A DNA stretch of 64,000 nucleotides, taken from positions 96,001 to 160,000 of IMG/VR virus record IMGVR_UViG_3300045988_154761; one strand, 5' to 3'. Numbering within the stretch: position 1 is the stretch's first letter; every line of letters starts with the position of its first letter. This DNA is from a virus. The position numbers and the translations under genes are program-made. Shown one piece after another: positions 3,244 through 15,421 of the stretch. The notes under the pieces are model-generated. The model was not told the origin of the DNA and made no database searches. It saw nothing but the letters and a program-made list of their open reading frames with translations.

Positions 3244-3386
3244 GCTCGTGTAACTCAGTTGGCAGAGTAGCGGCCTTGATGGAGTAGTATAAGAAATATG
3301 TCCTGTAAAGGAAGATGTGAGTTCAAATCTCATTTTCATCACAATTAAGCCGTTTGTCGAGAGTTCGAATCTCTCCACGGGCACCA
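3244..3386 (+). tRNA. tRNA gene with a 67 nt insertion in the anticodon loop (identity unresolved; Lys, Thr or other)
   Basis: acceptor GCTCGTG/CACGGGC, D arm ACTC-AGTTGGCA-GAGT, anticodon stem GCGGC (3270-3274)/GCCGT (3349-3353) separated by 74 nt, T arm GAGAG-TTCGAAT-CTCTC, CCA. Confidence 0.6.
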
Positions 3387-4055: not shown

Positions 4056-4132
4056 AAAAATATGATAAAGATACAAATTTATTTGTAAGCTAATTGTTCA
4101 TTTTTTATTGTTCATAAAAGCATTCCTTTCAG

Positions 4133-4263
4133 GTAGACTCTAACAGCAACTTTACAATCACAAATGCTATGGGTCTGTTTGTTGGAGGTTCGAATCCTTC
4201 ACTCCCGACCATCGGGAGTTAGCTCAACGGATAGAGCAATAGATTTTGTAAAAATGAGTCTAG
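4133..4263 (+). ncRNA. ACAGCAA closing-helix element, copy E5, enclosing a circularly permuted tRNA-like body
   Basis: TAGACTC (4134-4140) pairs with GAGTCTA (4256-4262); ACAGCAA 4143-4149; order is TCTGT, variable region, T arm GGAGG-TTCGAAT-CCTTC, ACTCCCG-A-CCA-T-CGGGAGT, D arm GCTC-AACGGATA-GAGC, ATAGA. Confidence 0.65.
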
Positions 4264-4324
4264 TCAATAAATTAATAAATTGACGCTCCTATTTTTCTAA
4301 TAGGCAAATATAAATTCCTTTCAA

Positions 4325-4442
4325 GTAGACACGTACAGCAAAATTACTTGATGCTTTAATATGGAAAATTAACGATAAGGTTCGACTCCTTAATCTTCTT
4401 TGGAAGATGCGTGGTTGCTGGAAATCAAAAAACGTGTCTAGG
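4325..4442 (+). ncRNA. ACAGCAA closing-helix element, copy E6 (tRNA-mimic core, related to E1)
   Basis: TAGACACGT (4326-4334) pairs with ACGTGTCTA (4432-4440); ACAGCAA 4335-4341; T arm TAAGG-TTCGACT-CCTTA and capped hairpin ATCTTC-TTTG-GAAGAT. Confidence 0.65.
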
Positions 4443-4457
4443 TTAAGTATTAATTAT

Positions 4458-4542
4458 GCAGGATTGGCGGAATTGGCAGACGCGACGGATTCAAGTCCCG
4501 TTTCCTAATGGAGTAAGAGTTCAAGTCTCTTATCCTGCACCA
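4458..4542 (+). tRNA. tRNA-Leu(CAA)
   Basis: acceptor GCAGGAT/ATCCTGC, loop TTCAAGT, long variable arm, T arm AGAG-TTCAAGT-CTCT, CCA; A31:C39 mismatch. Confidence 0.8.
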
Positions 4543-4991
4543 TAGTCTTGATGATAGACTAACAAAACATCATCCCCCAACGCCCGTCCGAAGTCTTGGA
4601 GTAGAGAACAAGTGAATGGTTCTCGAACGCAAAGTAAGCTGTCATAAGCTGAAAAAGGCTATAAGCCGCACATGGGTAGAACACAGATATATGGTGAGAG
4701 ATGTTAGGGTGCGAATGTAACATCAAAAGCCTACAGCGAAAAGCTATACGGAGAAGTCTGTGCCGTGTTTACGGGAATAGGTGGTTGCGTACCTATTCAA
4801 ACAAAAACTCTGATTACTGCAACTAAATCGGGGTAGGTATTGAGGTTATGGGTCATATAACCTTAAAACACAATAAGCCGAGCATACTGCTTATTGCTCC
4901 TAACGGGTGGTGCTGAGGATGAACAACAAAAGCCAAGTTATAGAGTTCTTGTAAAAAACTCTGTTGCTATTTGAAAGAATAGCTCAATTAT
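4543..4991 (+). ncRNA. unclassified ~450 nt GC-rich structured spacer (U1) between complete tRNAs
   Basis: no ORF; many hairpins (ATGTTA/TAACAT, ATAGGT/ACCTAT, GGTTAT/ATAACC, ATAAGC/GCTTAT, AGAGTT/AACTCT, GCTATT/AATAGC). Confidence 0.35.
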
Positions 4992-5067
4992 GGGCCTGTA
5001 ACTCAGTTGGGAGAGTGTCTGCTTTGCACGCAGGAAGTCGCAAGTTCAAGTCTTGTCAGGTCCACCA
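4992..5067 (+). tRNA. tRNA-Ala(TGC)
   Basis: acceptor GGGCCTG/CAGGTCC with G3:U70, loop TTTGCAC, T arm TTCAAGT, CCA. Confidence 0.85.
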
Positions 5068-5521
5068 TAAGAGTTAGTTGCTCTCTTAGAATAAAAAGCA
5101 CCGTATTAACACAAGTTTACGATAATTAACTGGCCCTCGTCTGCGGGTAAACAGCAGTTTTAGGCTACTATAAGCCGAAGTTTTAAGGGCAGTTTCTTTA
5201 AAAAACATGCATATGGTTTTTCTTGTTATCTCTTTTTTATCCTAAAAATAAGACGTAGCAGCATGACTTGAGGCTATACATCAAGCTCCTGAGACCGAAG
5301 AAAAAAAGCTTCCTGTATGTCAATGGGAAAATAATCTATCTGTTTCTTAATAACAGGTGGGAGGGAGTATTTTAGGTCGGCAAGACCATGAGAGGATAGC
5401 GCTGTTCTCTCAACCCTTTGCAAAGGTTGCTGATGGGTTTTCCAAACGGATGTGGAAATTAAATGAATGGAAGGGTATAATTCAGCCCAAAATCAGCTCT
5501 AAAATTCAAGAAAATATATTT
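5068..5521 (+). ncRNA. unclassified ~450 nt structured spacer (U2)
   Basis: only a spurious 65-aa ORF; three-way junction GCCCT/AGGGC enclosing CTGC-GGGTAAACA-GCAG and GGCT-ACTATA-AGCC near 5140-5205. Confidence 0.3.
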
Positions 5522-5599
5522 GGGTGTGTAGTTCAGTCTGGTCAGAACACTTGACTGTTAATCAAGGAGTCGAAGGTTCAAATCCTTCCATACCCGCCA
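5522..5599 (+). tRNA. tRNA-Asn(GTT)
   Basis: acceptor GGGTGTG/CATACCC, loop CTGTTAA, T arm GAAGG-TTCAAAT-CCTTC, G73, CCA. Confidence 0.85.
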
Positions 5600-5952
5600 A
5601 AAGTGGAGAGTGTAGGTTCGAGTCCTGCCCCGCTCGTGGGAAACCCTTGCAGGAAGCTGTTAGGTACAGCGCCACTTAGAATTTCTTTCACCTTATTACG
5701 CGAAATATGGGATTGAGATGTTGCTTTAGTCGGGTTCTTTTACAGCAGAAAATAAGAACGCACCTGTTTAATTGGGTTTTTCAGTTCAGTAAAAACAAGA
5801 AAAACCTCGGTTGTTTAGAAATTTTCTTCTGATATTGAATGAAAACAAATAGAGAATTCTCTCATTGCAATGCCGAAAGGTAGTAAGTTACGAATTTACC
5901 CATGATAAATTACGAACTTGCTACCGAGTAGGGATAAGAGAGAATTAAACAT
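5600..5952 (+). ncRNA. unclassified ~350 nt structured spacer (U3)
   Basis: ORF-free; AAGTGG (5601-5606)/CCACTT (5672-5677) closes a 77 nt module; 10 bp stem GTAGTAAGTT/AACTTGCTAC; CC-GAAA-GG tetraloop hairpin. Confidence 0.3.
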
Positions 5953-6028
5953 GCTTTGGTAGCTCAATTGGTAGAGCAGTGGACTGAAAATCCACGTGTA
6001 GCCAGTTCAATTCTGGCCTAAAGCACCA
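5953..6028 (+). tRNA. tRNA-Phe(GAA)
   Basis: acceptor GCTTTGG/CTAAAGC, D arm GCTC-AATTGGTA-GAGC, loop CTGAAAA, T arm GCCAG-TTCAATT-CTGGC, CCA. Confidence 0.9.
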
Positions 6029-6029
6029 T

Positions 6030-6113
6030 TGCTGGCGAGTGAAACGGATATATAAATCACGCTTGGCTCATACCCAAGTAATAGTGGGTTCGACTCCCAT
6101 GCTTCAGCAACCA
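6030..6113 (+). tRNA. tRNA with CAT anticodon (Met or Ile2 type), irregular acceptor and oversized D loop
   Basis: anticodon arm CTTGG-CTCATAC-CCAAG, D stem GTGA/TCAC with 14 nt loop, T arm GTGGG-TTCGACT-CCCAT, CCA; acceptor needs a bulge or a mismatch. Confidence 0.55.
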
Positions 6114-6137
6114 AAAAACAAAAGGAAGTAAATTCTA

Positions 6138-6443
6138 ATGACTGATTTTAAGACTTACATTTATTAGACAGCAAGTAATAAAAAGTTTGTTTATAGATGT
6201 CCTCATTGTAATAAAGGGATAATGCAAGTAGCAGAAATTAAAACTGTTAAAGATGAAACTAATATTTTATCTTGGAATTATACTTGTCCAGTTTGTAAGA
6301 AACAAATGGTTTCTATTGAAAAAGATGGTTGTTCTTCTTTTAAAAGTGTGTTCCCTCCAATGACTCAAATTAGTGATAAAGAATTTACTGATATTAAAAA
6401 GGATGTAGGAGAAAAAGGTATCTATCTGTTCTCTGAAATATAA
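6138..6443 (+). CDS. small zinc-ribbon protein (101 aa), 1 in-frame TAG
   Basis: ATG 6138 after AAAGGAAG; TAG at codon 10; CPHC...CPVC; the track ORF 6222-6443 is its 3' part. Confidence 0.6.
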
Positions 6444-6450
6444 AATAAAT

Positions 6451-6545
6451 GCTAGCGTACAGAAGTGGTCATAACTGCCATCACTTGAAATGATGTGTGA
6501 CGGCTTGTATCCGTCTCGTGAGTTCGAATCTTACCGCTAGTGCCA
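6451..6545 (+). tRNA. tRNA-Ser(TGA)
   Basis: acceptor GCTAGCG/CGCTAGT, anticodon arm CATCA-CTTGAAA-TGATG, long variable arm, T arm GTGAG-TTCGAAT-CTTAC, G73, CCA. Confidence 0.85.
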
Positions 6546-6565
6546 TTAAAAACGGAGTCTTTAAT

Positions 6566-6769
6566 ATGAAAATCTGGAATGGAAATGATTTTGAATATCT
6601 TGGTTATTTTGTAAAAAACAACAAGAAAGCTAAATATTTTGAGGTTTTTGACAAGAATGGCAATCTTCTTTTTAGACAAACTAATTGGGGTCATGCTTGT
6701 GTGACTTCAGTTAAACATAAGATTGAAGACTTTCATAAAAAATATAGACAGGAGATAAAAAATGAGTAA
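6566..6769 (+). CDS. hypothetical protein (67 aa)
   Basis: first ATG downstream of tRNA-Ser; the longer track ORF (6497) would overlap the tRNA. Confidence 0.6.
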   Translation: MKIWNGNDFEYLGYFVKNNKKAKYFEVFDKNGNLLFRQTNWGHACVTSVKHKIEDFHKKYRQEIKNE

Positions 6770-7277
6770 TAATAATTCAATCGAAATCGAACGTAAGTTT
6801 TTAATTTCTGGTTTTCCTAAAGTTGATTTTGACGAAGTTGGAATTGTTAAAACTATTTATATTAATATCAAATATAATTCTGATGGAAAAATTTTACAGG
6901 AAATTCGTATAAGACGTTGGTTTGAAAGTGGCAAAGGTTATCGTCCAGATACTCTTACTTTCAAATCTGGTGGTACTTTAACTCGCACTGAAATTGAAAC
7001 AAATCTTACAGATAATTCTTTGTTTGACTGTTTTAATGAACTTGGTTATAATCCTATTGTAAAAGATTATAGAGGTCTTTACAATAATGGTTATTTAATT
7101 GAATTCAATCTTGTAGATGGTGGAAGTGAGACTGCTTTCTATTATGCCGAAGTTGAATTCAATTCTGAGGAAGAAGCCAATAGTTTTGTTTGGCCTTTTC
7201 CTGAAGTATTTATTGAGGAAGTTACTAATAAGCCTGAATACAAAATGGCGAATTATTGGAAACGTACTCGTGGATAA
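6762..7277 (+). CDS. CYTH-domain (triphosphate tunnel metalloenzyme) protein
   Basis: N-terminal IEIERKFLI (ExExK signature) and YYAEVEF near the C-terminus. Confidence 0.75.
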   Translation: MSNNNSIEIERKFLISGFPKVDFDEVGIVKTIYINIKYNSDGKILQEIRIRRWFESGKGYRPDTLTFKSGGTLTRTEIETNLTDNSLFDCFNELGYNPIVKDYRGLYNNGYLIEFNLVDGGSETAFYYAEVEFNSEEEANSFVWPFPEVFIEEVTNKPEYKMANYWKRTRG

Positions 7278-7301
7278 GGACTATTATTTAGTCCTTTATT
7301 T
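7277..7301 (+). terminator. intrinsic terminator-like hairpin
   Basis: AGGACT/AGTCCT stem followed by TTTATTT. Confidence 0.5.
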
Positions 7302-7377
7302 GCTGGATTAGTTCAGTTGATAGAACGTATGATTTGTAATCATAATGTCAGGGGTTTGAGTCCCTTATCCAGCTCCA
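7302..7377 (+). tRNA. tRNA-Thr(TGT)
   Basis: acceptor GCTGGAT/ATCCAGC, anticodon arm TATGA-TTTGTAA-TCATA, T arm AGGGG-TTTGAGT-CCCTT, CCA. Confidence 0.85.
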
Positions 7378-7414
7378 TGAACTTTTTTATAAAATAAAAA
7401 AGAGGATTTTTATT

Positions 7415-7606
7415 ATGGACGAATTTTTAATCTCCGAAATCTTTGAGCTGATTAAAACTTTAAAGAAAGACAAGTATACCAAGTATACCATGAAAGATGT
7501 TAATACCATTTGCGATTTGCTTGGTATTGAATTATTTTGGTATCAAAAGTTTGTTCTTCTTCGTCAGCTTAATGATAAAAATTATATGAGGTATATATGC
7601 CGATAA
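7415..7606 (+). CDS. hypothetical protein (63 aa)
   Basis: ATG after AAAGAGGA; overlaps the next gene by 10 nt. Confidence 0.6.
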   Translation: MDEFLISEIFELIKTLKKDKYTKYTMKDVNTICDLLGIELFWYQKFVLLRQLNDKNYMRYICR

Positions 7607-7866
7607 GAAACGGAAACAATGATATTTATAGTGACATTTTCTTCCAATATTTGAATGAGAATGAAGAGAAGATGATTAATGAAACCGCTTCTAAGATGGA
7701 AGAACGAAATCCGATTCTTTATCCTAAAGATGTTTCAGTAGCAATTTTGAAATCCATCTATAGTGATTATAAGAAATATCTTTATGAGCACGGATATACT
7801 TTTAAGAAAGAATACTTAGAAGAATACTTTAAAAATTTATCAGAAGAAATTTTAAAAAGTACTTGA
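7597..7866 (+). CDS. hypothetical protein (89 aa)
   Basis: track ORF; its TGA stop lies inside the next promoter -35. Confidence 0.65.
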   Translation: MPIRNGNNDIYSDIFFQYLNENEEKMINETASKMEERNPILYPKDVSVAILKSIYSDYKKYLYEHGYTFKKEYLEEYFKNLSEEILKST

Positions 7867-7891
7867 CAAGATGATGAGTATGTGGTATACT
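7863..7891 (+). promoter_or_regulatory. sigma70/sigmaA-like promoter ahead of tRNA-Arg and tRNA-Gln
   Basis: TTGACA 7863-7868, 17 nt, TGG-TATACT (7886-7891). Confidence 0.7.
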
Positions 7892-7932
7892 TAAGATGTA
7901 GTTGAGATAAGAAATAAGTAAATCTTTGATAT

Positions 7933-8007
7933 GTGGACGTAGTTTAATGGCTAAAACGGTGGCCTCCGGTTCCGCAGATAGGGTTTCGATTACCCCCGTC
8001 CACTCCA
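7933..8007 (+). tRNA. tRNA-Arg(CCG)
   Basis: acceptor GTGGACG/CGTCCAC, loop CTCCGGT, T loop TTCGATT, CCA; one mismatch each in the anticodon and T stems. Confidence 0.7.
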
Positions 8008-8058
8008 GAAAAACAAATGTCTCTCTCTTGTAGACAGACAAGATTTCCTTTTTTGTGT

Positions 8059-8165
8059 ACTTCGTGGTGGTAACAGTACGATAAATAAAATAAGCCATGT
8101 CCTGTCGGACTCAGAAATGAGATGGATGTCCTCTGTGGAGAATCGGGATTCAGGGGCGAAGTACA
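8059..8165 (+). ncRNA. unclassified ~107 nt structured element between tRNA-Arg and tRNA-Gln
   Basis: 8 bp closing helix GTACTTCG (8059-8066)/CGAAGTAC (8158-8165); internal hairpins GTCC-TGTC-GGAC and CCAT...ATGG. Confidence 0.35.
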
Positions 8166-8172
8166 AAAATAT

Positions 8173-8246
8173 TGAGCATTAGAATAATGGTAGTTCATTA
8201 GGCTTTGACCCTAATGGTGGGGGTTCGAATCCCTCATGCTCAGCCA
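8173..8246 (+). tRNA. tRNA-Gln(TTG)
   Basis: acceptor TGAGCAT/ATGCTCA (U1:A72), anticodon arm TTAGG-CTTTGAC-CCTAA, G73, CCA. Confidence 0.85.
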
Positions 8247-8260
8247 ATTAAAGGAGATAT

Positions 8261-9232
8261 ATGGATATTTTAATTGATTAGTACACAAAAGAAGAGTTAT
8301 AGCAAATTTTAAATAATAGTTCTTCTTATTCTGACGCTTTAAGAAAATTAGGATATAATTCTACATCAAACGCTAATCGTCGGCATTTAAAGAGAATTAT
8401 AAAAGAAAAAAACTTAGAAGTTAATTTTCTTCCAAAGACATACATAAAGAAATTATCTGATGAAGAAATTTTCAAAGAAGATTCTCATGTTAGTTAGAGT
8501 TGTGTGCGAGAACATTTTTTAGCTTTAAATATAGTTGAGTATAAATGTTCTATATGTGGATAGGAACCGTTTTGGAATGGAAAACCTTTAACTTTAACAT
8601 TAGACCACATTAATGGTAAAAACCGAGATAACAGACTTGATAATTTAAGGTGGGTTTGTCCTAATTGCGATAGATAGCTTCCTATTTTTGGGCGGAAAAA
8701 TAAAACAGAGTTAAAAAAGAAGAAGTTAAAAAAATTTGATTTGGTAAAAAACAACAAACCAAAATCTTACAAAAAATATTTTAAAATTTACAAAGATAAC
8801 AAAAGATTTTGTTTGGGTTGTGGAAAAGAAATTACCAATAATTCTCTATATTGTTTTGATTGTGCTAATAAGCATAGAAGAAAACAAAAAGATAGACCAA
8901 CCAAAGAAGAGTTAGAAAAAATGTTAAAAGAAGAAAAGGGTAATTTTTCAAAAATAGCTAACCAATTTGGTATTTCTGATAATGCAGTTAGAAAATGGTG
9001 TAATAATTATGGTTTATCCTGTAAATCATCTGCTTATAAAGCACCAAAAAAAGAAAAACAACAACGAATTGAGAAACCTGTAAAGCAATTAGATTTAAAT
9101 GGTAATTTAATTAAAAGCTATTCTTCTATTAATCAAGCTTATGTTGAAACTAAAATAGAGCATATTTCTCAATGTGCGAACGGGTTAAGGAAAACAGCTC
9201 GGGGTTATAATTGGGAATTTGAAAAAGATTAA
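8261..9232 (+). CDS. HNH homing endonuclease with C-terminal HTH/NUMOD-like modules; 5 in-frame TAG
   Basis: ATG after AAGGAGA; frame checked end to end (TAG only); LDHINGKNRDNRLDNLRWVCPNCDR-TAG-LP; the track ORF 8741-9232 is its 3' part. Confidence 0.8.
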
Positions 9233-9251
9233 AAATTTTTTAACAATTAAC

Positions 9252-9373
9252 GTAGACGCTTACAGCAAACAATAATAAAATCAAATTCTATTAAAAAAGA
9301 TTTAGGGTATTGTTCCTTGCTAATTAGTTTATGATGCTTTCATGATTCTCCTTTGTTAGTATTATGCGTCTAG
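9252..9373 (+). ncRNA. ACAGCAA closing-helix element, copy E7
   Basis: TAGACGC (9253-9259) pairs with GCGTCTA (9366-9372); ACAGCAA 9262-9268; no T arm in the core. Confidence 0.55.
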
Positions 9374-9380
9374 TTTATAA

Positions 9381-9447
9381 GTGCCGTACCAAGGTTGGAG
9401 TCACTCGACGGAGGGCTTAAGAAGGGGTTCGAATCCCCCACGGTGCA
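9381..9447 (+). ncRNA. tRNA-like fragment (acceptor-like stem plus T arm, no foldable D or anticodon arms, no CCA)
   Basis: GTGCCGT/ACGGTGC stem and GGGG-TTCGAAT-CCCC; the middle 36 nt do not fold as a cloverleaf. Confidence 0.3.
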
Positions 9448-9503
9448 AGATTGAATTGTTTGGAGTACTACAAACAAGATGGTAAGTTATTGATGATTTA
9501 AAA

Positions 9504-9568
9504 GTAAACCCTTACAGCAATTTAACTATTTAATTTTTGCTTGAAAAAAGATTAAGGATAGGGTTTAG
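9504..9568 (+). ncRNA. ACAGCAA closing-helix element, copy E8 (short form)
   Basis: TAAACCCT (9505-9512) pairs with AGGGTTTA (9560-9567); ACAGCAA 9514-9520. Confidence 0.55.
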
Positions 9569-9584
9569 TCCTGTAATGTTGAAA

Positions 9585-9671
9585 GTAGACACTAACAGCA
9601 ATTAAAATAAAAATACTGGGAAATATATTTAATTGGAATAAATACTTTTTTAGATTTTTAAAGTGTCTAGG
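9585..9671 (+). ncRNA. ACAGCAA closing-helix element, copy E9 (short form)
   Basis: TAGACAC (9586-9592) pairs with GTGTCTA (9663-9669); ACAGCAA 9595-9601. Confidence 0.6.
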
Positions 9672-9680
9672 ATTTTATAT

Positions 9681-9816
9681 GGGGATGTATCTCAATTGGT
9701 CAGAGGGCCCGACTTATGTTTTAGTAGTTTAAAAGTAAAACTTTTAATGCAAGTGCAAGACTTGTCTAAAACACCAAATCGGGAAGTTGAGTGTTCGAGC
9801 CACTCCATTCCCACCA
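9681..9816 (+). tRNA. tRNA gene with a 59 nt insertion in the anticodon loop (Ile-UAU if excised at 37/38)
   Basis: acceptor GGGGATG/CATTCCC, D arm TCTC-AATTGGTCA-GAGG, anticodon stem CCCGA (9708-9712)/TCGGG (9779-9783) separated by 66 nt starting CTTATG, T arm GAGTG-TTCGAGC-CACTC, CCA. Confidence 0.65.
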
Positions 9817-9837
9817 ACGGTAGCAAATTCAAATAAA

Positions 9838-9907
9838 GTAGACTCTTACAGCAATTACTTAGAGACTTGTGATTTGGGATTACATATGTTTTGAAAAATG
9901 AGTCTAG
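9838..9907 (+). ncRNA. ACAGCAA closing-helix element, copy E10 (short form)
   Basis: TAGACTC (9839-9845) pairs with GAGTCTA (9900-9906); ACAGCAA 9848-9854. Confidence 0.6.
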
Positions 9908-9915
9908 CTTTATTA

Positions 9916-9992
9916 GCGCCTGTAGTCTAATTGGATAAAACCGCACTCTTCTAAAGTGTATCTTATGAGTTCGAATCTCGTCAGGCGTGCCA
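9916..9992 (+). tRNA. tRNA-Arg(TCT)
   Basis: acceptor GCGCCTG/CAGGCGT, anticodon arm GCACT-CTTCTAA-AGTGT, T arm ATGAG-TTCGAAT-CTCGT, CCA. Confidence 0.8.
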
Positions 9993-10018
9993 ATGAAGTT
10001 TCAAACTTCATTTAATTT
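9993..10018 (+). terminator. intrinsic terminator-like hairpin
   Basis: ATGAAGTT-TCA-AACTTCAT followed by a T-rich tract. Confidence 0.55.
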
Positions 10019-10022
10019 ATTA

Positions 10023-10333
10023 TTGCGGAGTAGTGTAACGGTTAGCACAGCGGTCTTGAATTAGGGACTCCTATTTGGAAACGAATAGGTAATAAAGAGG
10101 GCTAAAACGGTTGACATCTTATTATTAAGTTAGTAAGACTATCCCGTGCTAAATCAGTTCAAAAAACTGTAAATGTGTAGAGAGCATAGACTCTCCACCT
10201 AAACCGAAAGGCAAGGTGATAATGTGCTCCAGACTACAACGATTTTTATCGGCTATGGTGACATAGAGTAGCAAGCTAAAACCGTACCATTCTGAGTGGG
10301 TTAGATTGAGTTCGAATCTCAACTCCGCTGCCA
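10023..10333 (+). tRNA. split tRNA gene interrupted by a 220 nt group I-like intron; predicted spliced anticodon CTA (amber suppressor), alternative TGA
   Basis: 5' part TGCGGAG-TA-GTGT-AACGGTTA-GCAC-A-GCGGT-CT (10023-10055); 3' part CTAAA-ACCGT, 20 nt variable region, TTGAG-TTCGAAT-CTCAA-CTCCGCT-G-CCA (10276-10333). Confidence 0.55.
10056..10275 (+). ncRNA. group I-like intron candidate inside the split tRNA
   Basis: 5' exon ends in U, intron ends in G; P1 GGTCT (10051-10055) with GGACT (10064-10068) including the U:G pair; P10 TTAG (10060-10063) with CTAA (10276-10279); P2 CCTATT/AATAGG; R-like TCCAGACTACAA (10228-10239); GAAA-capped hairpin; the P3/P7 core was not resolved. Confidence 0.45.
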
Positions 10334-10438
10334 ATTTAAAAGTAAAGGGAACATTGGAGTAATTAACCAATGAGATAATGATACCTTCGCTGTCAAGCTT
10401 TACTTTTTTTAAATAAATCTGTGAAGGAGATTTTGTTT

Positions 10439-11410
10439 ATGCAAGGAAGTATTTATATTATTCATAATTCAATAAACGATAAAAAGTATATTGGATAGAC
10501 TTCAAGAACAGTTGAAATTCGTTGGAAAGAGCATTTACAAGAAGCTCAAAATTTAGATTGCCATTATGCAATTTATAATGCTATAAGAAAATATGGGGTT
10601 GAAAATTTTTGGGTAGAAGAAATAGAAAAATGTGAAACGAAAGATTTAGATGAAAGAGAAAAATATTGGATAAAATATTATAATTCTTTTAAAAAAGGTT
10701 ATAATTCAACTCTTCGGGGAACCACAAATTTCAATTGTTTTTATAATAAATTAACTTTTGAAAATTCAAACTGTGTTTTTGATTCAATAGAGAATTTTTC
10801 AAGAATATATAGTTAGTATCATAATATATCATTGAGTCAAGTAAAAGACAAAATATTAAGAGCAATAAATAATGATAAAACTTTTTATGGTAAAAAGCCT
10901 GTAATTTTAAATTGGGATGTAGATGTATCTTCAGATAAAGACAAAGAAAAATTTGTTAAATAGTTTGAAGATATATATTAGAATAAAAGTGTAAGATGTA
11001 TTGAACTTAAAAAAAATTTTAATACTGTTGGGCAAGCGGCAAAGTATTTTGTTGAAAAAGAAATATATACTGGAAAATCTAGTAATCCTCTTCAAGCTGT
11101 TACAGTTTTAATTACTAAATCAATAAAAGACAATAAAGCTTGTAAATCTTTGAATAATTATCACTTTAAATATACATAGAAAAATAAAAAGATATTAAAC
11201 AAATCCTCTTTAAATCCTTATCAAAAAGTTCCAGTAAAATGTAATGAATTGAATTTAGTTTTTAATTCATAGGTTGAAGCTGCTTAGTATATGATAGATA
11301 ACAAATTGTGGGATGTTAGTTTAAAAACTGCACGATTAAGAATAACTGACTTAGTAAATAATAAGATAGAAAAATATAAAGGTTATTCTTTTTGTAAAAT
11401 ACAAACTTAA
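10439..11410 (+). CDS. GIY-YIG homing endonuclease with repeated NUMOD/IENR-like DNA-binding modules; 7 in-frame TAG
   Basis: ATG after GAAGGAGA; all 323 codons checked, TAG is the only interruption; GSIYIIHNSINDKKYIG-TAG-TSRTVEIRWKEH, KYWIKYYNS. Confidence 0.85.
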
Positions 11411-11444
11411 ATTAAAAGACAAAAATTAAAGGAGACAAAAAATT

Positions 11445-11900
11445 ATGTGTGACAACTGCAAGAATGACATTTCCCGACCGTCTAACTCTTCCATTGCTTA
11501 TGGTGTTTATGAGAGTGGTGGCGTAGTCAAGGCTGAGGTAACTGATACTGCATTTGATGCAATGCATGTTATTACTCGTCTTTGTGAAAAGGCTGATATG
11601 AAGACTATTTCTCTTGAAGGCATTTGGGAGAACACTCTTCTTGAAAACAGCTATCGTGGTAAGGCAAAGGTAAACCATGCTGATGGTGATAAGTTCGTTG
11701 AGGACATTGGTAAGGAGTTTGCTCGTGGCAAGGCTCTTGAAAAGTATCATCGAGCATTTGACCGTAAGATTCTTGCAATGCTTCTTGATGCACGAGTTCT
11801 GGTTGCAACCATTGAACATTATTGTGCCAAGAAGAGTATCAACACTGAAAAGATTCCTTCGATTGAAGCGATTTCCAAGAAGCGCTTTGGTTGTAAGTAA
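11445..11900 (+). CDS. hypothetical protein (151 aa)
   Basis: ATG after AAAGGAGA; followed by a terminator. Confidence 0.75.
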   Translation: MCDNCKNDISRPSNSSIAYGVYESGGVVKAEVTDTAFDAMHVITRLCEKADMKTISLEGIWENTLLENSYRGKAKVNHADGDKFVEDIGKEFARGKALEKYHRAFDRKILAMLLDARVLVATIEHYCAKKSINTEKIPSIEAISKKRFGCK

Positions 11901-11952
11901 TCAATAATAAAAAGTAGTTCGTTTAAAATTTTCATAAATTCACTCCAAAAAG

Positions 11953-11984
11953 AGGAAGAGGTCAAATGGCTTCTTCCTTTTTTT
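11953..11984 (+). terminator. intrinsic terminator
   Basis: AGGAAGA (11953-11959)/TCTTCCT (11972-11978) followed by TTTTTT. Confidence 0.65.
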
Positions 11985-12016
11985 ACACGTTTTTGAAAGA
12001 AACTTTTAATAAACAC

Positions 12017-12045
12017 TTGACAAGAAAAAAGATGTATGGTAATAT
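12017..12045 (+). promoter_or_regulatory. sigma70/sigmaA-like promoter
   Basis: TTGACA 12017-12022, 17 nt, TGG-TAATAT (12040-12045). Confidence 0.7.
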
Positions 12046-12071
12046 TTAAACAAATAGAAAGGAGAGTTGAT

Positions 12072-12485
12072 ATGGCAATTAATAGTTCTATTACATATGG
12101 AGAAGTTGAGGAATTCTTCTCTACTCTTATGTCTCCTGAGATTCCTAAGATGCGTAAATATTATGTCTATGGGATGTATCAGAAAGAACAGGAAAATGAA
12201 AAGAAAGTTGCTGAGTTTGAAAAAGCCGCAGGAGGAACTAAGGGTACTTGGCGTTATTTTGGTACGATGATTGGCGAGGATATGTGTGTTCTTACCCTTA
12301 CTCAGCGTGAAGATACAGAATATTATTTTCCTGCTTATAAAGACAAAGACGGGAAAATTCATGTTGGTCTTGAAGGCTACAAAGAATTTGATTTTGCAGT
12401 TCTTGCTTGTGTAGCTTATAAGTATACAAATTCTACAAATTCAATTCCTTGGATTTGCAAATTAATTGATAAAGAGGTAAATTAA
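12072..12485 (+). CDS. hypothetical protein (137 aa)
   Basis: ATG 12072 after AAAGGAGAG; the longer track start (12036) lies inside the promoter. Confidence 0.7.
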   Translation: MAINSSITYGEVEEFFSTLMSPEIPKMRKYYVYGMYQKEQENEKKVAEFEKAAGGTKGTWRYFGTMIGEDMCVLTLTQREDTEYYFPAYKDKDGKIHVGLEGYKEFDFAVLACVAYKYTNSTNSIPWICKLIDKEVN

Positions 12486-12851
12486 ATGCGTAAGCTTAAT
12501 ACGATTCAGAAGAGGAACAACCTTAATACTGTGTATGCAGTAGATGAAAAGGGCATTGGTAATGCCAATCATGTTTACAATGTTGTTGTAACTGATGGTC
12601 AGGGTAATGAGACTCCCTATTCTATTGCTTTCCAGAATGGCCCTCGCAAGGAAATGGATTCAATTCATGGACTTCTTGACACAGACCTTCTTGAGATTGT
12701 TCGTGACCGTCTTCAGGGTTTTCAGTCTGGCGAGTTTGCTTGTCGTGAGAATGCGATTGCACTTACTCATCTCGAAGAGTGTTTGCTCTGGATGGACAAG
12801 AGAGTTGAAGACCGTGCAGAACGTGGAGTACTTGGTACTTCTAATAAGTAA
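12486..12851 (+). CDS. hypothetical protein (121 aa)
   Basis: abuts the previous stop; well-formed globular sequence, family not recognised. Confidence 0.7.
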   Translation: MRKLNTIQKRNNLNTVYAVDEKGIGNANHVYNVVVTDGQGNETPYSIAFQNGPRKEMDSIHGLLDTDLLEIVRDRLQGFQSGEFACRENAIALTHLEECLLWMDKRVEDRAERGVLGTSNK

Positions 12852-12856
12852 TTAAG

Positions 12857-13297
12857 ATGGATAGAAATAATCTTACTGTAATTAAAGGGGGGAAGGATGA
12901 AAATTCTTCTCCTTCTTTAGAAAATAGACCAATTCCAAAGTGCAAATTCTGTTCTCAGCCAATGATTGCTGGAGAGAAAGATACCTATTATTGCACTTGT
13001 AAGAATTATTTGTCTTATTTACGTTTATTAGAGCAAATGCAAAAGTTAGAAGAGACTTATAAAACCAATATGGCTACTTATCAATCTATTGCTCAAAAGC
13101 TTTTGCAGGACTCTGATTACTATAAAAAGGTAATTGCTCTTACAAGAAAGAGACAGGAAGAAGAAAAAGAAGAAAAAAATAATCCTAAGAAGCCAGTAAA
13201 GGTAATTGATTTTACAGAAATAAACAATAATAAAAACAAGACAAAAGCTGAGAACGATGATATTTTAGGATATTATTGGTTTCCTCCAATTAACTAA
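12857..13297 (+). CDS. hypothetical protein with N-terminal zinc ribbon and Lys/Glu-rich tail
   Basis: CKFC...CTC motif. Confidence 0.7.
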   Translation: MDRNNLTVIKGGKDENSSPSLENRPIPKCKFCSQPMIAGEKDTYYCTCKNYLSYLRLLEQMQKLEETYKTNMATYQSIAQKLLQDSDYYKKVIALTRKRQEEEKEEKNNPKKPVKVIDFTEINNNKNKTKAENDDILGYYWFPPIN

Positions 13298-13339
13298 ATT
13301 ATTAATAAAACAAAGTAAAAAGAAAGGAGACAAAGAAAT

Positions 13340-13621
13340 ATGCCCCAGTGGGAAAGATGGCAAGGAGAATTGCTTCACAGTCTCCAAGATATTACAACAT
13401 ATAGTCATTTAGGACTTGTATTTACTTTAATTCCAAACGATGAAATTTCTATAGACCAAGAAGAAAAAGATTTGCATTTGTCAATTAAAGCAATGGTTTA
13501 TAAGAAATATTATAATTCTATTTCGCCCCCAAGATGGACTTGGAATGATTCTTTAGCATCTGCAAAAAACAATTTAATGGTATTTATCAATGAATGGTTA
13601 AAGAGAAGGGGGTTATTGTAA
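13340..13621 (+). CDS. hypothetical protein (93 aa)
   Basis: ATG after AAAGGAGA. Confidence 0.65.
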   Translation: MPQWERWQGELLHSLQDITTYSHLGLVFTLIPNDEISIDQEEKDLHLSIKAMVYKKYYNSISPPRWTWNDSLASAKNNLMVFINEWLKRRGLL

Positions 13622-13992
13622 TACAAACGATGGAAAGTAATAATAAAAAGCTGCATGGTATTTTAGGATTAATTCTTAATGCTTTTTACTTTTTTATTGG
13701 AGCCCATTATTTAACTACTTGTCATACGACAAGTATATTGTCGTATATTGTTTTAGTAATAGCTTTCTCTGTTTATATTGGATATTGTTATACTTTTGGC
13801 GTTAAATGGGAGATTAAGCATATTCAATACAACGAAGAGAAAATTGAAAACATAGAAAAGAAAATTAAAACAATGGAGAAGAGTATCAATTATCTTATGG
13901 AACACTCTCCTTTAGATGAGGAAAAATATAATAGATATTTAGATATTTCTGAACAAGAGGGATTTGACCCAATTACACATCAGCGACTTTAA
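13594..13992 (+). CDS. membrane protein (2 predicted TM helices); start uncertain (13594 or 13630)
   Basis: hydrophobic stretches LGLILNAFYFFIGAHYL and ILSYIVLVIAFSVYIGYCY. Confidence 0.55.
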   Translation: MVKEKGVIVIQTMESNNKKLHGILGLILNAFYFFIGAHYLTTCHTTSILSYIVLVIAFSVYIGYCYTFGVKWEIKHIQYNEEKIENIEKKIKTMEKSINYLMEHSPLDEEKYNRYLDISEQEGFDPITHQRL

Positions 13993-14021
13993 AAAAATTT
14001 TGAAAAGTATGTAATAAGTAC

Positions 14022-14050
14022 TTGACAAAATGAAAGTTAAGTGCTATTAT
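14022..14050 (+). promoter_or_regulatory. sigma70/sigmaA-like promoter
   Basis: TTGACA 14022-14027, 17 nt, TGC-TATTAT (14045-14050). Confidence 0.7.
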
Positions 14051-14329
14051 ATAACTAAGCTAAAGGTAACACTTTAGCGAACTAGAAAAGGCTTAAGACA
14101 AGATGTAGCAAGCATTCAATAATTGATTTGGTTGTAAGGCGTTTCACCAACGCAGATTGCTACGACGAACTAAACTTGCTTAAAGGTAGCGGGAGCAATC
14201 CTCTAAAAGATTTCCGATGGTGGTTTGGAACTTCTATATTTGGAGTAAGAAGGTAAATGGATAAGGCAACATTCGTGTTAGCGTTTATCGTGTAGGAAAT
14301 TTTAGAGCAGATAAAAGAAGGGAAATACA
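14051..14329 (+). ncRNA. long (~280 nt) GC-elevated structured leader or ncRNA candidate
   Basis: ORF-free stretch between the promoter and the 14330 gene; helices GCTAAAG/CTTTAGC, GTAGCAA/TTGCTAC, TTGCT/AGCAA. Confidence 0.35.
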
Positions 14330-14692
14330 ATGTCTACTAAAATTTACGAAATCATTCCTTATGAAGTAGAAGCTTTGAAGTGGGAAAAAGATAATTGGAA
14401 CGAAGTTGTAGAATTCTTTAAAGCTCATAATACTGAAATTAAGAATATTATTAAATATTCTGAAAAGGCACTTGAAAGATTTAAAAATCTTAACAAAACT
14501 TGGTTTGAAAATAATCTTGATAATGAAGGTAGAAATGCTTTTGTTGCTTATAGACCAGAAGATGATTCTCATGATGAATATGAAGAATTTGTTGACCTTG
14601 GAGATTATTTTGTAATTGGAAAAGATGGTTTAGTTTATGTAAAACAGGGGCTCAATTTTGAAAAGATGTTTAGGGAGAAAGAAAATGTTTGA
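14330..14692 (+). CDS. hypothetical protein (120 aa)
   Basis: track ORF; ATG after GAAGGGAAA. Confidence 0.7.
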   Translation: MSTKIYEIIPYEVEALKWEKDNWNEVVEFFKAHNTEIKNIIKYSEKALERFKNLNKTWFENNLDNEGRNAFVAYRPEDDSHDEYEEFVDLGDYFVIGKDGLVYVKQGLNFEKMFREKENV

Positions 14693-15062
14693 AGTTAAGT
14701 TTCTTCGTCATAATAAAGCAAAATACAGAAGTAATGTTTCTCAAGAGTATTCTTTCAAGAAAACTTTTAATACTGTAACAGAGCTTATGCAGTATTTAGA
14801 TAAAGCTCCACGAACCTCTGTTTCAGTAGTTGATTATAGTGGTCTTAGTCATTCTGAATGGTATGCTTTTTGTCAAAAAAGACATCAGAAGATTTGGAAT
14901 GATAGACTTAAATATAAGAAAGAGCATCCTGAATTTTCTTGGATTGACCAATATCTTACACCTGAACATAAGAGATTAGAATTCTATAATTTGTTAAAAG
15001 GTGGAATGTCTGAACCTGCGCATAGACTTCCAAGGAAGTATTACAAGAAACATGATTTGTAA
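14685..15062 (+). CDS. hypothetical protein (125 aa)
   Basis: ATG 14685 after GGGAGA; overlaps the upstream stop by 8 nt. Confidence 0.7.
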   Translation: MFEVKFLRHNKAKYRSNVSQEYSFKKTFNTVTELMQYLDKAPRTSVSVVDYSGLSHSEWYAFCQKRHQKIWNDRLKYKKEHPEFSWIDQYLTPEHKRLEFYNLLKGGMSEPAHRLPRKYYKKHDL

Positions 15063-15081
15063 TTAAATTAACAAGTTGCTG

Positions 15082-15133
15082 CAAAGTTGTCAAGAAAAAA
15101 GTTTTTAGAACTTCTTGACAACTTTGTTTTTTT
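15082..15133 (+). terminator. intrinsic terminator whose 3' arm carries the next promoter -35
   Basis: 13 bp stem CAAAGTTGTCAAG (15082-15094)/CTTGACAACTTTG (15114-15126) followed by TTTTTTT. Confidence 0.65.
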
Positions 15134-15143
15134 ATGCTATACT
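15115..15143 (+). promoter_or_regulatory. sigma70/sigmaA-like promoter
   Basis: TTGACA 15115-15120, 17 nt, TGC-TATACT (15138-15143). Confidence 0.7.
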
Positions 15144-15175
15144 TTATTTATAAAAATATTCAAGGAGTTTTTGAA

Positions 15176-15421
15176 ATGGAAAAAACTTTTAATATTAAGT
15201 GTACCATGGAAGAAAGATGGATTGATTCTTTTCTTTCTATGTTACGTTATATGGAAGTCTGTGGAAAAATTGGACATTCTACTTTAATTGGTTTCTATAG
15301 TGATGGTGATGGAGATTTCCGACCTCTATTTGAGCCTGATGTACAATTTAATAGAGATGATGGCTATGTTCCTGAAAAGGATAGTGGCAAAATCCCTTCG
15401 AGGATTTATGATGCTGGCTAA
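15176..15421 (+). CDS. hypothetical protein (81 aa)
   Basis: ATG after CAAGGAG; the longer track start lies inside the promoter. Confidence 0.65.
   Translation: MEKTFNIKCTMEERWIDSFLSMLRYMEVCGKIGHSTLIGFYSDGDGDFRPLFEPDVQFNRDDGYVPEKDSGKIPSRIYDAG

What the first reader, a model, noticed from the sequence alone, without database searches (positions are those of the whole stretch)
9681..9816. Canonical tRNA body with a 59 nt branched insertion in the anticodon loop
The acceptor, D, anticodon and T stems are all well formed and CCA is encoded. However, 66 nt separate the anticodon stem strands (CCCGA and TCGGG). The insert is far too short for a group I or II intron. Immediately past CTTA it forms a 7 bp helix (TGTTTTA/TAAAACA), followed by two hairpins (TTAAAAG/CTTTTAA and CAAGT/ACTTG). 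Excision at the eukaryal/archaeal 37/38 position would give Ile(UAU). Protein-spliced tRNA introns are not expected in bacteria or their phages. Alternatively this is a tRNA-scaffolded ncRNA.
Basis: seen in the sequence. Interest (0 to 1): 0.7.

Follow-up and report, generated by a model that had tools for sequence, protein, structure and literature searches.

The report
tRNA-like intron inside phage tRNA-Ile
A gut jumbo-phage isoleucine tRNA gene is split in its anticodon loop by a 59-base miniature tRNA look-alike that ends in CCA, which suggests, but does not prove, that ordinary tRNA-trimming enzymes cut it out.

Summary
Window 9681-9816 is a good tRNA (Rfam 49.5 bits) with 66 nt between the anticodon-stem strands.

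The insert is not an arbitrary branched RNA. Bases 9718-9776 form a miniature tRNA:
- a 7-bp acceptor helix,
- a D-arm,
- no anticodon arm,
- a 5-bp T-stem with a 7-nt T-loop abutting the acceptor 3' strand,
- then A73 and CCA.

Removing exactly that element leaves the loop CUUAUAA, which reads tRNA-Ile(UAU). The insertion lies at 36/37, not 37/38.

The same architecture recurs in 21 distinct elements in gut jumbo-phage contigs. They interrupt Ile, Lys, Gln, Glu, Gly and Thr tRNAs at 34/35, 35/36 or 36/37. Of pair cells, 98.4% are paired, and 11 of 12 pairs show compensatory change. Intronless orthologues confirm the boundaries for the Lys, Gln and Ile families.

There is no BHB motif, no group I core and no ribozyme hit.

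My best mechanism is inferred, not shown. RNase P cuts at the inner 5' end, a tRNA 3'-end endonuclease cuts after CCA, and a 3'-OH/5'-P RNA ligase seals the exons. No ligase was found in about 95 kb examined.

Lak megaphages were reported in 2019 to carry related "enigmatic" tRNA introns.

The parts
9681..9717 (+). 5' exon of tRNA-Ile(UAU). Contains acceptor 5' strand 9681-9687, D arm 9690-9706, anticodon stem 5' strand 9708-9712, loop C32 U33 and anticodon TAT 9715-9717.
   Evidence: Rfam tRNA 49.5 bits; ARAGORN -i; coordinates checked.
9718..9776 (+). Nested tRNA-like intervening element, 59 nt. Contains acceptor 5' strand GTTTTAG 9718-9724, TA, D-arm GTTT-AAAAGTA-AAAC 9727-9741, linker TTTTAAT 9742-9748 in place of an anticodon arm, T-arm GCAAG-TGCAAGA-CTTGT 9749-9765, acceptor 3' strand CTAAAAC 9766-9772, discriminator A 9773 and CCA 9774-9776.
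   Evidence: Architecture scan. Covariation over 21 homologous or analogous elements. Seven close variants keep this fold at 99.1% and vary only in the linker. Folded alone, z = -2.49.
9777..9816 (+). 3' exon. Contains A37 A38 9777-9778, anticodon stem 3' strand 9779-9783, variable loop 9784-9788, T arm 9789-9805, acceptor 3' strand 9806-9812, A73 9813 and CCA 9814-9816.
3244..3386 (+). Second interrupted tRNA of the same kind in the window: tRNA-Lys(UUU). Its loop is CTT | 67-nt nested tRNA-like element 3278-3344 ending A-CAA | TTAA.
   Evidence: The nested part scores 39.9 bits with Rfam tRNA. The syntenic intronless orthologue L106 c11004-11079 has the loop CTTTTAA and a nearly identical body.
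9585..9672 (+). Upstream RNA module GTAGACACT-AACAGCAA ... AAGTGTCTAG, ending about 10 nt before the tRNA. It is one of 11 such modules. It probably belongs to the same transcript and is not part of the intron.
   Evidence: Motif search: 11 found against 0.26 expected. The closing helix was read.

Best explanation
Window 9681-9816 is a phage tRNA-Ile(UAU) gene. Its anticodon loop is interrupted between U36 and A37 by a 59-nt intervening element that is itself a miniature tRNA.

The element has a 7-bp acceptor helix stacked on a 5-bp T-stem with a 7-nt T-loop. It has a D-arm and no anticodon arm, and it ends in discriminator A plus CCA. It belongs to a mobile family of such elements that sit in the anticodon loops of several tRNA species in human-gut jumbo phages.

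Proposed mechanism (inferred, not shown):
1. The nested element is treated as a tRNA by the end-maturation machinery.
2. RNase P cuts immediately 5' of its G+1. This leaves the 5' exon ending in U36 with a 3'-OH.
3. A tRNA 3'-end endonuclease cuts directly after its CCA, as Thermotoga-type RNase Z or RNase BN does. This leaves a 5'-phosphate on A37.
4. The outer cloverleaf holds the two exon ends together as a nick in the anticodon loop.
5. An ATP-dependent 3'-OH/5'-P RNA ligase of the T4 Rnl1 type seals the nick, giving mature tRNA-Ile(UAU) and a free 59-nt tRNA-like RNA.

Shown: the anatomy, the family, the exact boundaries, presence/absence polymorphism and the covariation.

Inferred: that splicing happens, and which enzymes do it.
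For: (1) Removing exactly [7-bp helix ... N73 + 3 nt] restores a canonical 7-nt loop in every case.
- Ile: CTTAT|AA
- Lys: CTT|TTAA and CTTT|TAA
- Gln: CTTT|GAC
- Glu: CTTTC|AC
- Gly: CTTCC|AA
- Thr: TTT|GTAA

(2) Intronless orthologues confirm those boundaries.
- L106 tRNA-Lys against window 3244-3386.
- Window tRNA-Gln 8173-8246 against L001 c4480-4639.
- L293 tRNA-Ile is 93.6% identical over 78 nt to the in-silico spliced L013 gene.

(3) The insertion site moves between 34/35, 35/36 and 36/37. It always coincides with the inner element's own 5' end and its NCCA end. The inner fold, not the outer tRNA, therefore defines the cut sites.

(4) In 21 distinct elements, 98.4% of acceptor and T-stem pair cells are paired and 11 of 12 pairs show compensatory change. 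The covariation score is 0.977 against 0.27 for shuffles, and slid registers reach at most 51%. T54, C56 and A58 are invariant. NCCA is present in 19 of 21.

(5) The base before the cut is always a pyrimidine, usually U. Together with the 12-bp stack and RCCA, these are the known recognition features of bacterial RNase P (established knowledge).

(6) The 3' end of the nested element tracks the phage's own tRNA style.
- In this family ordinary tRNA genes encode CCA (13/13, 21/23, 11/11, 12/12) and nested elements end in CCA.
- In Lak-A2, 0/6 ordinary tRNA genes encode CCA and the nested tRNA-like parts lack it.

(7) The inner element is 93-97% identical between two tRNA-Ile bodies that are only 77-78% identical. 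Close relatives differ by presence or absence of inserts. Both observations indicate mobility.
Against: - There are no RNA data, so splicing itself is unproven.
- No RNA ligase, RtcB, polynucleotide kinase or RNase Z-like gene was found. The search covered the 64-kb window and about 30 kb of flanks in sister contigs. The host's repertoire is unknown.
- An endonuclease that cuts exactly after CCA is documented in only a few bacteria.
- Two of the 21 elements end in ACAA or CCCT instead of NCCA.
- Lak megaphage introns carry an extra 26-31 nt hairpin leader between the 5' exon and the tRNA-like part. RNase P alone cannot define their 5' splice site, so a different shared mechanism may exist.
- No intronless allele of this particular gene was found.
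Confidence: 0.45

Rival explanations
1. The element is a true intron, but a dedicated protein endonuclease removes it. This enzyme (phage or host encoded, not yet recognised) would use the tRNA-like fold as a handle. It would leave 2',3'-cyclic phosphate and 5'-OH ends, which RtcB joins.
For: Lak introns have a 5' hairpin leader that RNase P cannot account for. The window encodes a DUF2828/VWA (PHROG 'RNA-binding') protein and Y-RNA-like modules; if that protein is a Ro60 relative, as I suspect but did not test, bacterial Rsr/Y RNA operons often carry RtcB (established knowledge). Many window proteins have no family match.
Against: No RtcB, EndA or HEPN-type nuclease was found in about 95 kb inspected. 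The cut sites coincide precisely with tRNA 5' and CCA ends. A new enzyme does not explain this more simply than the enzymes that already make those ends.
Confidence: 0.2
2. The element is not spliced. The outer tRNA is an inactivated gene or a folding scaffold, and the product is the 59-nt tRNA-like RNA (or the whole 136-nt RNA). It might act as a decoy for tRNA-targeting defences or as a partner of the Ro60-like protein.
For: There is no direct evidence of splicing. The array is full of other tRNA-like non-tRNA elements (9381-9450; permuted YrlA-like 4157-4255). The excised element has a mature-tRNA-like CCA end, which suggests it is made to last.
Against: Both exon halves stay intact, and the anticodon loop is exactly restorable in six tRNA species across divergent phages. 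In the arrays inspected, the interrupted gene was the only tRNA-Ile(UAU) that ARAGORN called. The exons are close to intronless functional-looking tRNA-Ile genes.
Confidence: 0.15
3. It is an archaeal/eukaryal-type intron, cut at a bulge-helix-bulge motif by a splicing endonuclease.
For: The position is in the anticodon loop, the insert is short and there is no ribozyme core.
Against: The two junctions are not in 3-nt bulges separated by a 4-bp helix. One lies at the first pair of a 7-8 bp helix and the other 4 nt beyond its other strand. The site is 36/37 here and 34/35 or 35/36 in relatives. No tRNA_int_endo family hit was found.
Confidence: 0.02
4. It is a self-splicing or self-cleaving RNA, such as a miniature group I-like intron or a small ribozyme.
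For: The neighbouring suppressor tRNA (10025-10333) does carry a 219-nt intron with U at the 5' splice site and G at its 3' end.
Against: The insert is 59 nt and ends in A, not G. Rfam gives no hit at E <= 1 other than tRNA. Across the family only the tRNA-like features are conserved, and everything else varies in sequence and length from 50 to 123 nt.
Confidence: 0.03

Closest known systems
'Enigmatic' tRNA introns of Lak megaphages (Devoto et al. 2019, PMC6784885)
   Same: Both are phage tRNA genes interrupted in the anticodon loop. Both introns contain a T-arm plus acceptor helix, and one Lak intron was noted as possibly encoding a tRNA. Intron sequences are nearly identical across genomes. 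Presence/absence alleles exist.
   Different: Lak introns have a 26-31 nt 5' hairpin leader before the tRNA-like part, and that part does not end in CCA. Here the element starts at the 5' splice site and ends in NCCA at the 3' splice site. The phage lineage differs (about 205-225 kb versus 540 kb) and so do the tRNA species affected. No mechanism was proposed for Lak.
Archaeal/eukaryal protein-spliced tRNA introns (BHB motif, EndA/Sen, RtcB or Trl1)
   Same: Short, non-catalytic intron in the anticodon loop that needs protein enzymes and a ligase.
   Different: No BHB motif. Not at 37/38. The cut sites are set by a nested tRNA fold. The predicted end chemistry is 3'-OH/5'-P rather than cyclic phosphate/5'-OH.
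Bacterial group I introns in tRNA anticodon loops (cyanobacterial tRNA-Leu(UAA) and others)
   Same: A bacterial-world tRNA gene interrupted in the anticodon loop, with a mobile element. One probable example sits 200 nt downstream in the same array (10057-10275).
   Different: This insert is 59 nt and has no P1-P9 core, no terminal G and no Rfam hit.
tRNA-like structures excised by RNase P and RNase Z (MALAT1 mascRNA, mitochondrial tRNA punctuation)
   Same: A tRNA-shaped module inside a longer RNA defines two precise cuts made by tRNA-end enzymes. This is the closest analogue for how it would work.
   Different: Those systems do not religate the flanks. Here the flanks are the two halves of another tRNA and must be joined.
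T4 Pnkp/Rnl1 repair of anticodon-loop nicks
   Same: The substrate would be a tRNA nicked in the anticodon loop with 3'-OH and 5'-P ends, sealed by a phage ligase.
   Different: In T4 the nick is damage from a host anticodon nuclease. Here it would be a programmed processing step. No Rnl homologue has been found yet.
YrlA-type bacterial Y RNAs (tRNA-like domain, Rsr/Ro60 partner)
   Same: A tRNA top-half mimic with a shortened or absent anticodon arm. YrlA-like modules and a Ro60-like protein are encoded in the same window.
   Different: In YrlA the acceptor stem is closed by a loop and the ends emerge from the anticodon side. Here the topology is the reverse, with a free NCCA end. Rfam YrlA does not hit 9681-9816.

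Membership tests
tRNA (Rfam RF00005), outer gene | Covariance-model score at or above the gathering threshold over the full model | tested here: met
   49.5 bits against 29, model positions 1-71, window 9681-9813.
tRNA (Rfam RF00005), outer gene | Contiguous 7-nt anticodon loop | tested here: not met
   66 nt lie between the stem strands. A 7-nt loop CTTATAA is restored only after removing 9718-9776.
tRNA-Ile(UAU) | Loop C32 U33 U34 A35 U36 A37 A38 with A73, and homology to uninterrupted tRNA-Ile(UAU) genes | tested here: met
   In-silico splicing gives CTTATAA with A73. Sister interrupted genes match intronless phage tRNA-Ile(TAT) genes: L013 vs L293 93.6% over 78 nt, L005 vs L252 98% over 53 nt, L126 vs L255 96.6% over 58 nt. 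Aminoacylation cannot be tested here.
tRNA-Ile(UAU) | An intronless allele of this very gene | tested here: not met
   0 matches to ..GGCCCGACTNNNAATCGGGAA.. in viral contigs and metagenome contigs.
Archaeal/eukaryal BHB tRNA intron | Both splice sites in 3-nt bulges flanking a 4-bp helix | tested here: not met
   The MFE and the conserved fold place the 5' site at the first pair of a 7-8 bp helix and the 3' site 4 nt past its other strand.
Archaeal/eukaryal BHB tRNA intron | Canonical position 37/38 | tested here: not met
   36/37 here. Relatives use 34/35, 35/36 and 36/37, fixed by intronless orthologues.
Archaeal/eukaryal BHB tRNA intron | Splicing endonuclease and RtcB/Trl1 ligase available | tested here: inconclusive
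   None found in the window or in about 30 kb of flanks of sister contigs. More than half of the roughly 215-kb genome and the host were not examined.
Group I intron | Conserved P1-P9 core (Rfam RF00028), length of about 200 nt or more, terminal G | tested here: not met
   No Rfam hit at E <= 1. The insert is 59 nt and its last base is A.
Small self-cleaving ribozymes (hammerhead, twister, pistol, hatchet, HDV-like) | Match to a family covariance model | tested here: not met
   The Rfam E-value search of 1-14000 found only tRNA at this site.
Lak-type phage tRNA introns | Intron in the anticodon loop of a phage tRNA gene whose 3' part is a T-arm plus acceptor helix abutting the 3' exon | tested here: met
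   Compare Table S6 sequences.
Lak-type phage tRNA introns | 26-31 nt 5' hairpin leader, and a tRNA-like part without CCA | tested here: not met
   There is no leader: the acceptor helix starts at the splice site. NCCA is present.
tRNA-like RNase P / RNase Z substrates | 12-bp acceptor/T-stem coaxial stack, T-loop with U54, C56 and A58, single-stranded 3' NCCA | tested here: met
   Composite alignment of 21 elements: 98.4% paired, T54/C56/A58 invariant, NCCA in 19 of 21.
tRNA-like RNase P / RNase Z substrates | Actual cleavage by these enzymes | not testable with these tools
   Needs in vitro assays or end-specific RNA sequencing.
YrlA / Y RNA | Rfam RF02553 match; acceptor closed by a loop; Ro-binding stem formed by the 5' and 3' ends | tested here: not met
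   No YrlA hit at 9681-9816, and the topology is opposite. The only YrlA-like hit is 4157-4255, at 40.6 bits against a threshold of 69.

The most novel reading that the evidence does not exclude
This would be a third route of tRNA splicing, distinct from self-splicing and from BHB endonuclease splicing. A tRNA-shaped intron would be excised by the universal tRNA end-processing enzymes: RNase P at its 5' end and an RNase Z-like cut after CCA. The host tRNA halves would then be rejoined by a 3'-OH/5'-P ligase. The intron family would be mobile among phage tRNA genes and would release a stable CCA-ended mini-tRNA with a function of its own.
Probability: 0.35. Interest if true: 0.9.

Novelty: new variant of a known kind. 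Interest (0 to 1): 0.75.

Why it matters
Protein-dependent tRNA introns are textbook markers of archaea and eukaryotes. Bacteria and their viruses were thought to have only self-splicing ones. Introns in phage tRNAs were reported once, in Lak megaphages, and left as "enigmatic".

This locus and its relatives give a simple sequence rule: the intron equals a mini-tRNA from +1 to CCA. That rule turns the puzzle into a directly testable mechanism.

If the mechanism is confirmed, several consequences follow.
- tRNA end-maturation enzymes can double as a splicing apparatus.
- It would explain why tRNA predictors miss or mislabel phage tRNAs. Here ARAGORN called this gene SeC(TCA), and called homologous genes in related contigs Trp(CCA).
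- That mislabelling matters for inferring genetic-code changes in recoded phages.
- It would reveal a new class of small mobile elements and a new family of CCA-ended tRNA-like RNAs.

Tried and rejected
- ARAGORN's reading as an opal-suppressor or SeC tRNA (TCA): rejected. The helix + N73 + CCA rule and the intronless Ile orthologues give TAT. TGA does not appear recoded in the homing-endonuclease ORFs.
- Trp(CCA) and Leu(UAA) readings: rejected for the same reasons, and because the outer body is class I.
- Megablast of 11400-31000 against INPHARED phages: one 35-nt hit only, so no annotated relative.
- Search for an intronless allele of this gene: nothing in viral or metagenome contigs.
- Search for RNA ligase, RtcB, PNK or EndA with PHROGs, Pfam and NCBIfam in the window and flanks: none.
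- ARAGORN's 'tRNA-Val(cac) i(30,46)' at 838-956: the acceptor pairs only 5 of 7 and it does not fit the rule, so it was left aside.
- Literature searches for a described mechanism: only the Lak report was found.
- The sigma-70 promoter scan near the gene was not above chance.

Full report
**1. Observation.**
Window 9681-9816 (+) reads as a tRNA with an encoded CCA. Its parts are acceptor GGGGATG/CATTCCC, a D arm, anticodon stem CCCGA/TCGGG, T arm GAGTG-TTCGAGC-CACTC and A73-CCA. Exactly 66 nt lie between the two anticodon-stem strands. Rfam's tRNA model gives 49.5 bits against a threshold of 29. ARAGORN misses the gene with default settings. With introns allowed it reports a 77-nt tRNA plus a 59-nt intron, but labels it SeC(TCA). 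The minimum-energy fold of the 136 nt is a cloverleaf with a three-way junction in the anticodon loop (z = -2.46).

**2. What the insert is.**
The splice register is ambiguous from the sequence alone: CCA, TCA, TAA and TAT are all possible anticodons. Related sequences resolved it.

Exact and loose pattern scans of IMG/VR and of metagenome contigs returned two groups of relatives:
- The same gene occurs in many independent assemblies of 125-225 kb phage contigs, several labelled human gut.
- Quite different tRNA genes carry different inserts at the same place.

In every case the insert begins with a 7-nt strand whose complement lies at the other end. One further base and then CCA follow, and the outer loop resumes immediately after. 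A 5-bp stem with a 7-nt loop, T-(T/G)-C-R-A-N-N, sits directly 5' of that 3' strand.

That is the acceptor/T-arm stack, T-loop, discriminator and CCA of a tRNA. In the window the element is 9718-9776:
- GTTTTAG
- TA
- GTTT-AAAAGTA-AAAC (D arm, homologous to TAGTTTAAATGGTAAAAT in longer relatives)
- linker TTTTAAT in place of an anticodon arm
- GCAAG-TGCAAGA-CTTGT
- CTAAAAC
- A
- CCA

Removing exactly this leaves CTTAT+AA, which is C32 U33 UAU A37 A38. The gene is therefore tRNA-Ile(UAU), with the insertion at 36/37.

**3. Boundaries tested against intronless genes.**
An ARAGORN -i survey of the related loci and a purpose-written scanner found the same architecture in other tRNA species.

| Locus | Loop with insert | tRNA |
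|---|---|---|
| window 3244-3386 | CTT \| 67 nt ...A-CAA \| TTAA | Lys(UUU) |
| L001, L063, L166, L167 | CTTT \| 85 nt ...A-CCA \| GAC | Gln(UUG) |
| L220 | CTTTC \| 66 nt ...A-CCA \| AC | Glu(UUC) |
| L220 | CTTCC \| 69 nt ...T-CCA \| AA | Gly(UCC) |
| L213 | TTT \| 88 nt ...C-CCA \| GTAA | Thr(UGU) |
| L141, L220 | further Lys cases | Lys(UUU) |

Three intronless counterparts fix the junctions independently of the rule.
- L106 has, at the syntenic position, an uninterrupted tRNA-Lys with loop CTTTTAA and almost the same body as window 3244-3386.
- The window's own uninterrupted tRNA-Gln (8173-8246, loop CTTTGAC) is syntenic with the interrupted Gln gene of L001.
- L293 carries an uninterrupted tRNA-Ile(TAT) that is 93.6% identical over 78 nt to the in-silico spliced L013 gene.

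No intronless allele of the window's own tRNA-Ile body was found.

**4. Statistics.**
I built a composite alignment of 21 distinct elements, taking the first 9 and the last 28 nt of each.
- 98.4% of the 252 pair cells are paired.
- 11 of 12 pairs have changes on both sides.
- The covariation score is 0.977, against 0.27 ± 0.03 for shuffles (0 of 500 reach it).
- Every slid register gives at most 51% pairing.
- T54, C56, A58 and the G53-C61 pair are invariant.
- NCCA is present in 19 of 21; the exceptions are ACAA and CCCT.

There is a caveat. My scanners required 6-7 acceptor pairs, so acceptor pairing is partly ascertained. T-stem pairing, the T-loop and (outside the Ile pattern) CCA were not selected for.

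Among seven close variants of the 59-nt element, every variable site but three lies in the linker. The tRNA-like fold stays at 99.1%.

Two controls argue against chance:
- A scan for this architecture on both strands of the whole window gave NCCA-ending hits only in the tRNA array.

**5. Context.**
The window is part of a human-gut phage genome of roughly 205-225 kb. It has no annotated relative in INPHARED.

Positions 388-10333 hold an array of at least 16 tRNA genes. Most are preceded by a conserved RNA module, GUAGAC-NNN-(U/A)ACAGCAA ... NNN-GUCUAG. There are 11 copies against 0.26 expected. One copy lies in the 5'UTR of a DUF2828/VWA 'RNA-binding' protein. Another weakly matches YrlA.

Homing-endonuclease genes (PD-(D/E)XK, HNH, GIY-YIG) sit between the tRNAs. 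They are the only ORFs with in-frame TAG.

The tRNA at 10025-10333 is a class II amber suppressor, tRNA(CUA). A 219-nt intron (CU|...G|CUAAA) splits it. Its intronless orthologue is L157 c9078-9167.

The array therefore holds two kinds of tRNA intron side by side.

**6. Mobility.**
Close relatives differ by presence or absence of the inserts. Lys is interrupted in the window but not in L106. Gln is interrupted in L001 but not in the window.

The same 59-nt element is 93-97% identical in two tRNA-Ile bodies that are only 77-78% identical (Fisher p = 0.001-0.017). This fits lateral spread, perhaps helped by the neighbouring free-standing endonucleases. That last suggestion is inference.

**7. 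Mechanism.**
What is shown is a geometry. One junction is at +1 of a tRNA-like acceptor helix and is preceded by a pyrimidine. The other is immediately after NCCA. The position within the outer loop varies.

This is the geometry of tRNA end maturation. It is not that of a bulge-helix-bulge, which would have two symmetric bulges 4 bp apart. It is not that of group I splicing either.

A cross-check supports this. In this phage family ordinary tRNA genes encode CCA (13/13, 21/23, 11/11, 12/12, 7/7) and the nested elements end in CCA. In Lak-A2 no ordinary tRNA gene inspected encodes CCA (0/6), and the Lak nested tRNA-like parts lack it.

I therefore propose the following steps:
1. RNase P cleaves at 9717/9718.
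2. An RNase Z/BN-like enzyme cleaves after CCA at 9776/9777.
3. A T4 Rnl1-like ligase seals the resulting 3'-OH/5'-P nick in the anticodon loop.

Every enzymatic step is inference.

Points against:
- No RNA ligase, RtcB, PNK, EndA or RNase Z gene appeared in the window or in about 30 kb of flanks in sister contigs.
- Lak introns carry a 26-31 nt hairpin leader that this model does not explain.

The flanks do encode tRNA- and NAD-related enzymes: a Thg1-like protein (96.6 bits), a Cys-phosphatase, PARP+WGR, Macro, NADAR and an IscS-like protein.

**8. Comparison and novelty.**
The closest precedent is the Lak megaphage report of tRNAs with "enigmatic introns", one of which "may itself encode a tRNA" (PMC6784885). 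Six full-text searches found no mechanism and no later description. The library is incomplete, however.

The present case is a cleaner, leaderless, CCA-ended variant. It occurs in another phage lineage and in other tRNA species. I rate it a new variant of a known but unexplained kind.

It works most like tRNA-like modules excised by RNase P and RNase Z (mascRNA, mitochondrial punctuation), combined with T4-style anticodon-loop ligation. It fails the membership tests for BHB introns, group I introns, small ribozymes and YrlA.

Noticed in passing
window 488, 2723, 3103, 3422, 4133, 4325, 9252, 9504, 9585, 9838, 23379 (+): There are eleven copies of an RNA module, GTAGAC-NNN-(T/A)ACAGCAA ... NNN-GTCTAG, against 0.26 expected. 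The variable NNN covaries between the two arms. Ten copies lie within the tRNA array, where checked ending about 10-20 nt before a tRNA. One is in the 5'UTR of the DUF2828/VWA 'RNA-binding' gene (23463-25181). Some enclose a circularly permuted tRNA-like domain; 4157-4255 hits Rfam YrlA at 40.6 bits, below threshold. It may be a Y-RNA-like system with a Ro60-like partner.
   Followed up: partly
window 10025-10333 (+), intron 10057-10275: A class II amber-suppressor tRNA(CUA) is split by a 219-nt intron (CU|...G|CUAAA). Default ARAGORN misses it, and Rfam group I does not recognise the intron. The intronless orthologue is L157 c9078-9167. L002 has a different Sup(CUA) with a similar intron, whose intronless orthologue is L063 2974-3048. 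Introns may be one reason suppressor tRNAs go undetected in recoded phages.
   Followed up: partly
window 3410-3916, 8261-9232, 10439-11410, 25191-26477, 58296-59102 (+): In-frame TAG codons (1-7 per ORF) occur in the homing-endonuclease-type genes (PD-(D/E)XK_5, HNH_3+NUMOD1, GIY-YIG, DUF4379 zinc-finger). A few further ORFs carry in-frame TAG (22873-23343, which had no Pfam hit, and 49172-50041 and 50031-51392, which were not scanned). The rest of the window reads in the standard code. A TAG falls at the Q of the YIGQT motif, consistent with TAG=Gln. Expression of these selfish genes would depend on the suppressor tRNA.
   Followed up: partly
window 3244-3386 (+), nested part 3278-3344: A second nested tRNA-like intron lies in tRNA-Lys(UUU). 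It ends ACAA instead of ACCA. A PD-(D/E)XK endonuclease gene follows immediately, and that gene is absent from the relative L106, which has the intronless Lys gene.
   Followed up: yes
window 9381-9450 (+): A free-standing tRNA-like element (7-bp acceptor GTGCCGT/ACGGTGC, canonical T arm AGGGG-TTCGAAT-CCCCC) has no CCA and no normal anticodon arm. It is conserved in L001 and L002.
   Followed up: no
L466 1403-2227 and neighbours; L486 1-10000 (sister contigs, about 8-20 kb upstream of the window start): A gene cluster lies next to the tRNA array. It encodes a Thg1-like 3'-5' nucleotidyltransferase (Pfam 96.6 bits), a Cys-phosphatase (HCNAGISRS), PARP+WGR, Macro, NADAR, an IscS-like cysteine desulfurase, the BRCT end of a LigA-like ligase, UvrD and ThyX. 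This points to tRNA repair or modification and ADP-ribose metabolism.
   Followed up: partly
window 33097-33588 (+): A 164-aa protein matches PF04308, RNaseH_like (YkuK family), at 128.7 bits. Its function is unknown. It is a possible nuclease.
   Followed up: no
all interrupted tRNAs in window and loci L001-L227: Every tRNA carrying a nested element in this family has U34: UAU, UUU, UUG, UUC, UCC and UGU. These include the Lys, Gln and Glu tRNAs that anticodon nucleases classically target. With only about half of the ordinary phage tRNAs having U34, this could reflect either an insertion-site preference or a function.
   Followed up: no
window 838-956 and 960-1500 (+): This region holds further irregular tRNA-like sequences (T-arm GTTGGTTCGAATCCAAT; GGAGTTCGATTCTTC ... 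GCCGCTCCA). ARAGORN -i calls one of them Val(cac) with a 46-nt intron, but it does not fit the nested-tRNA rule.
   Followed up: no
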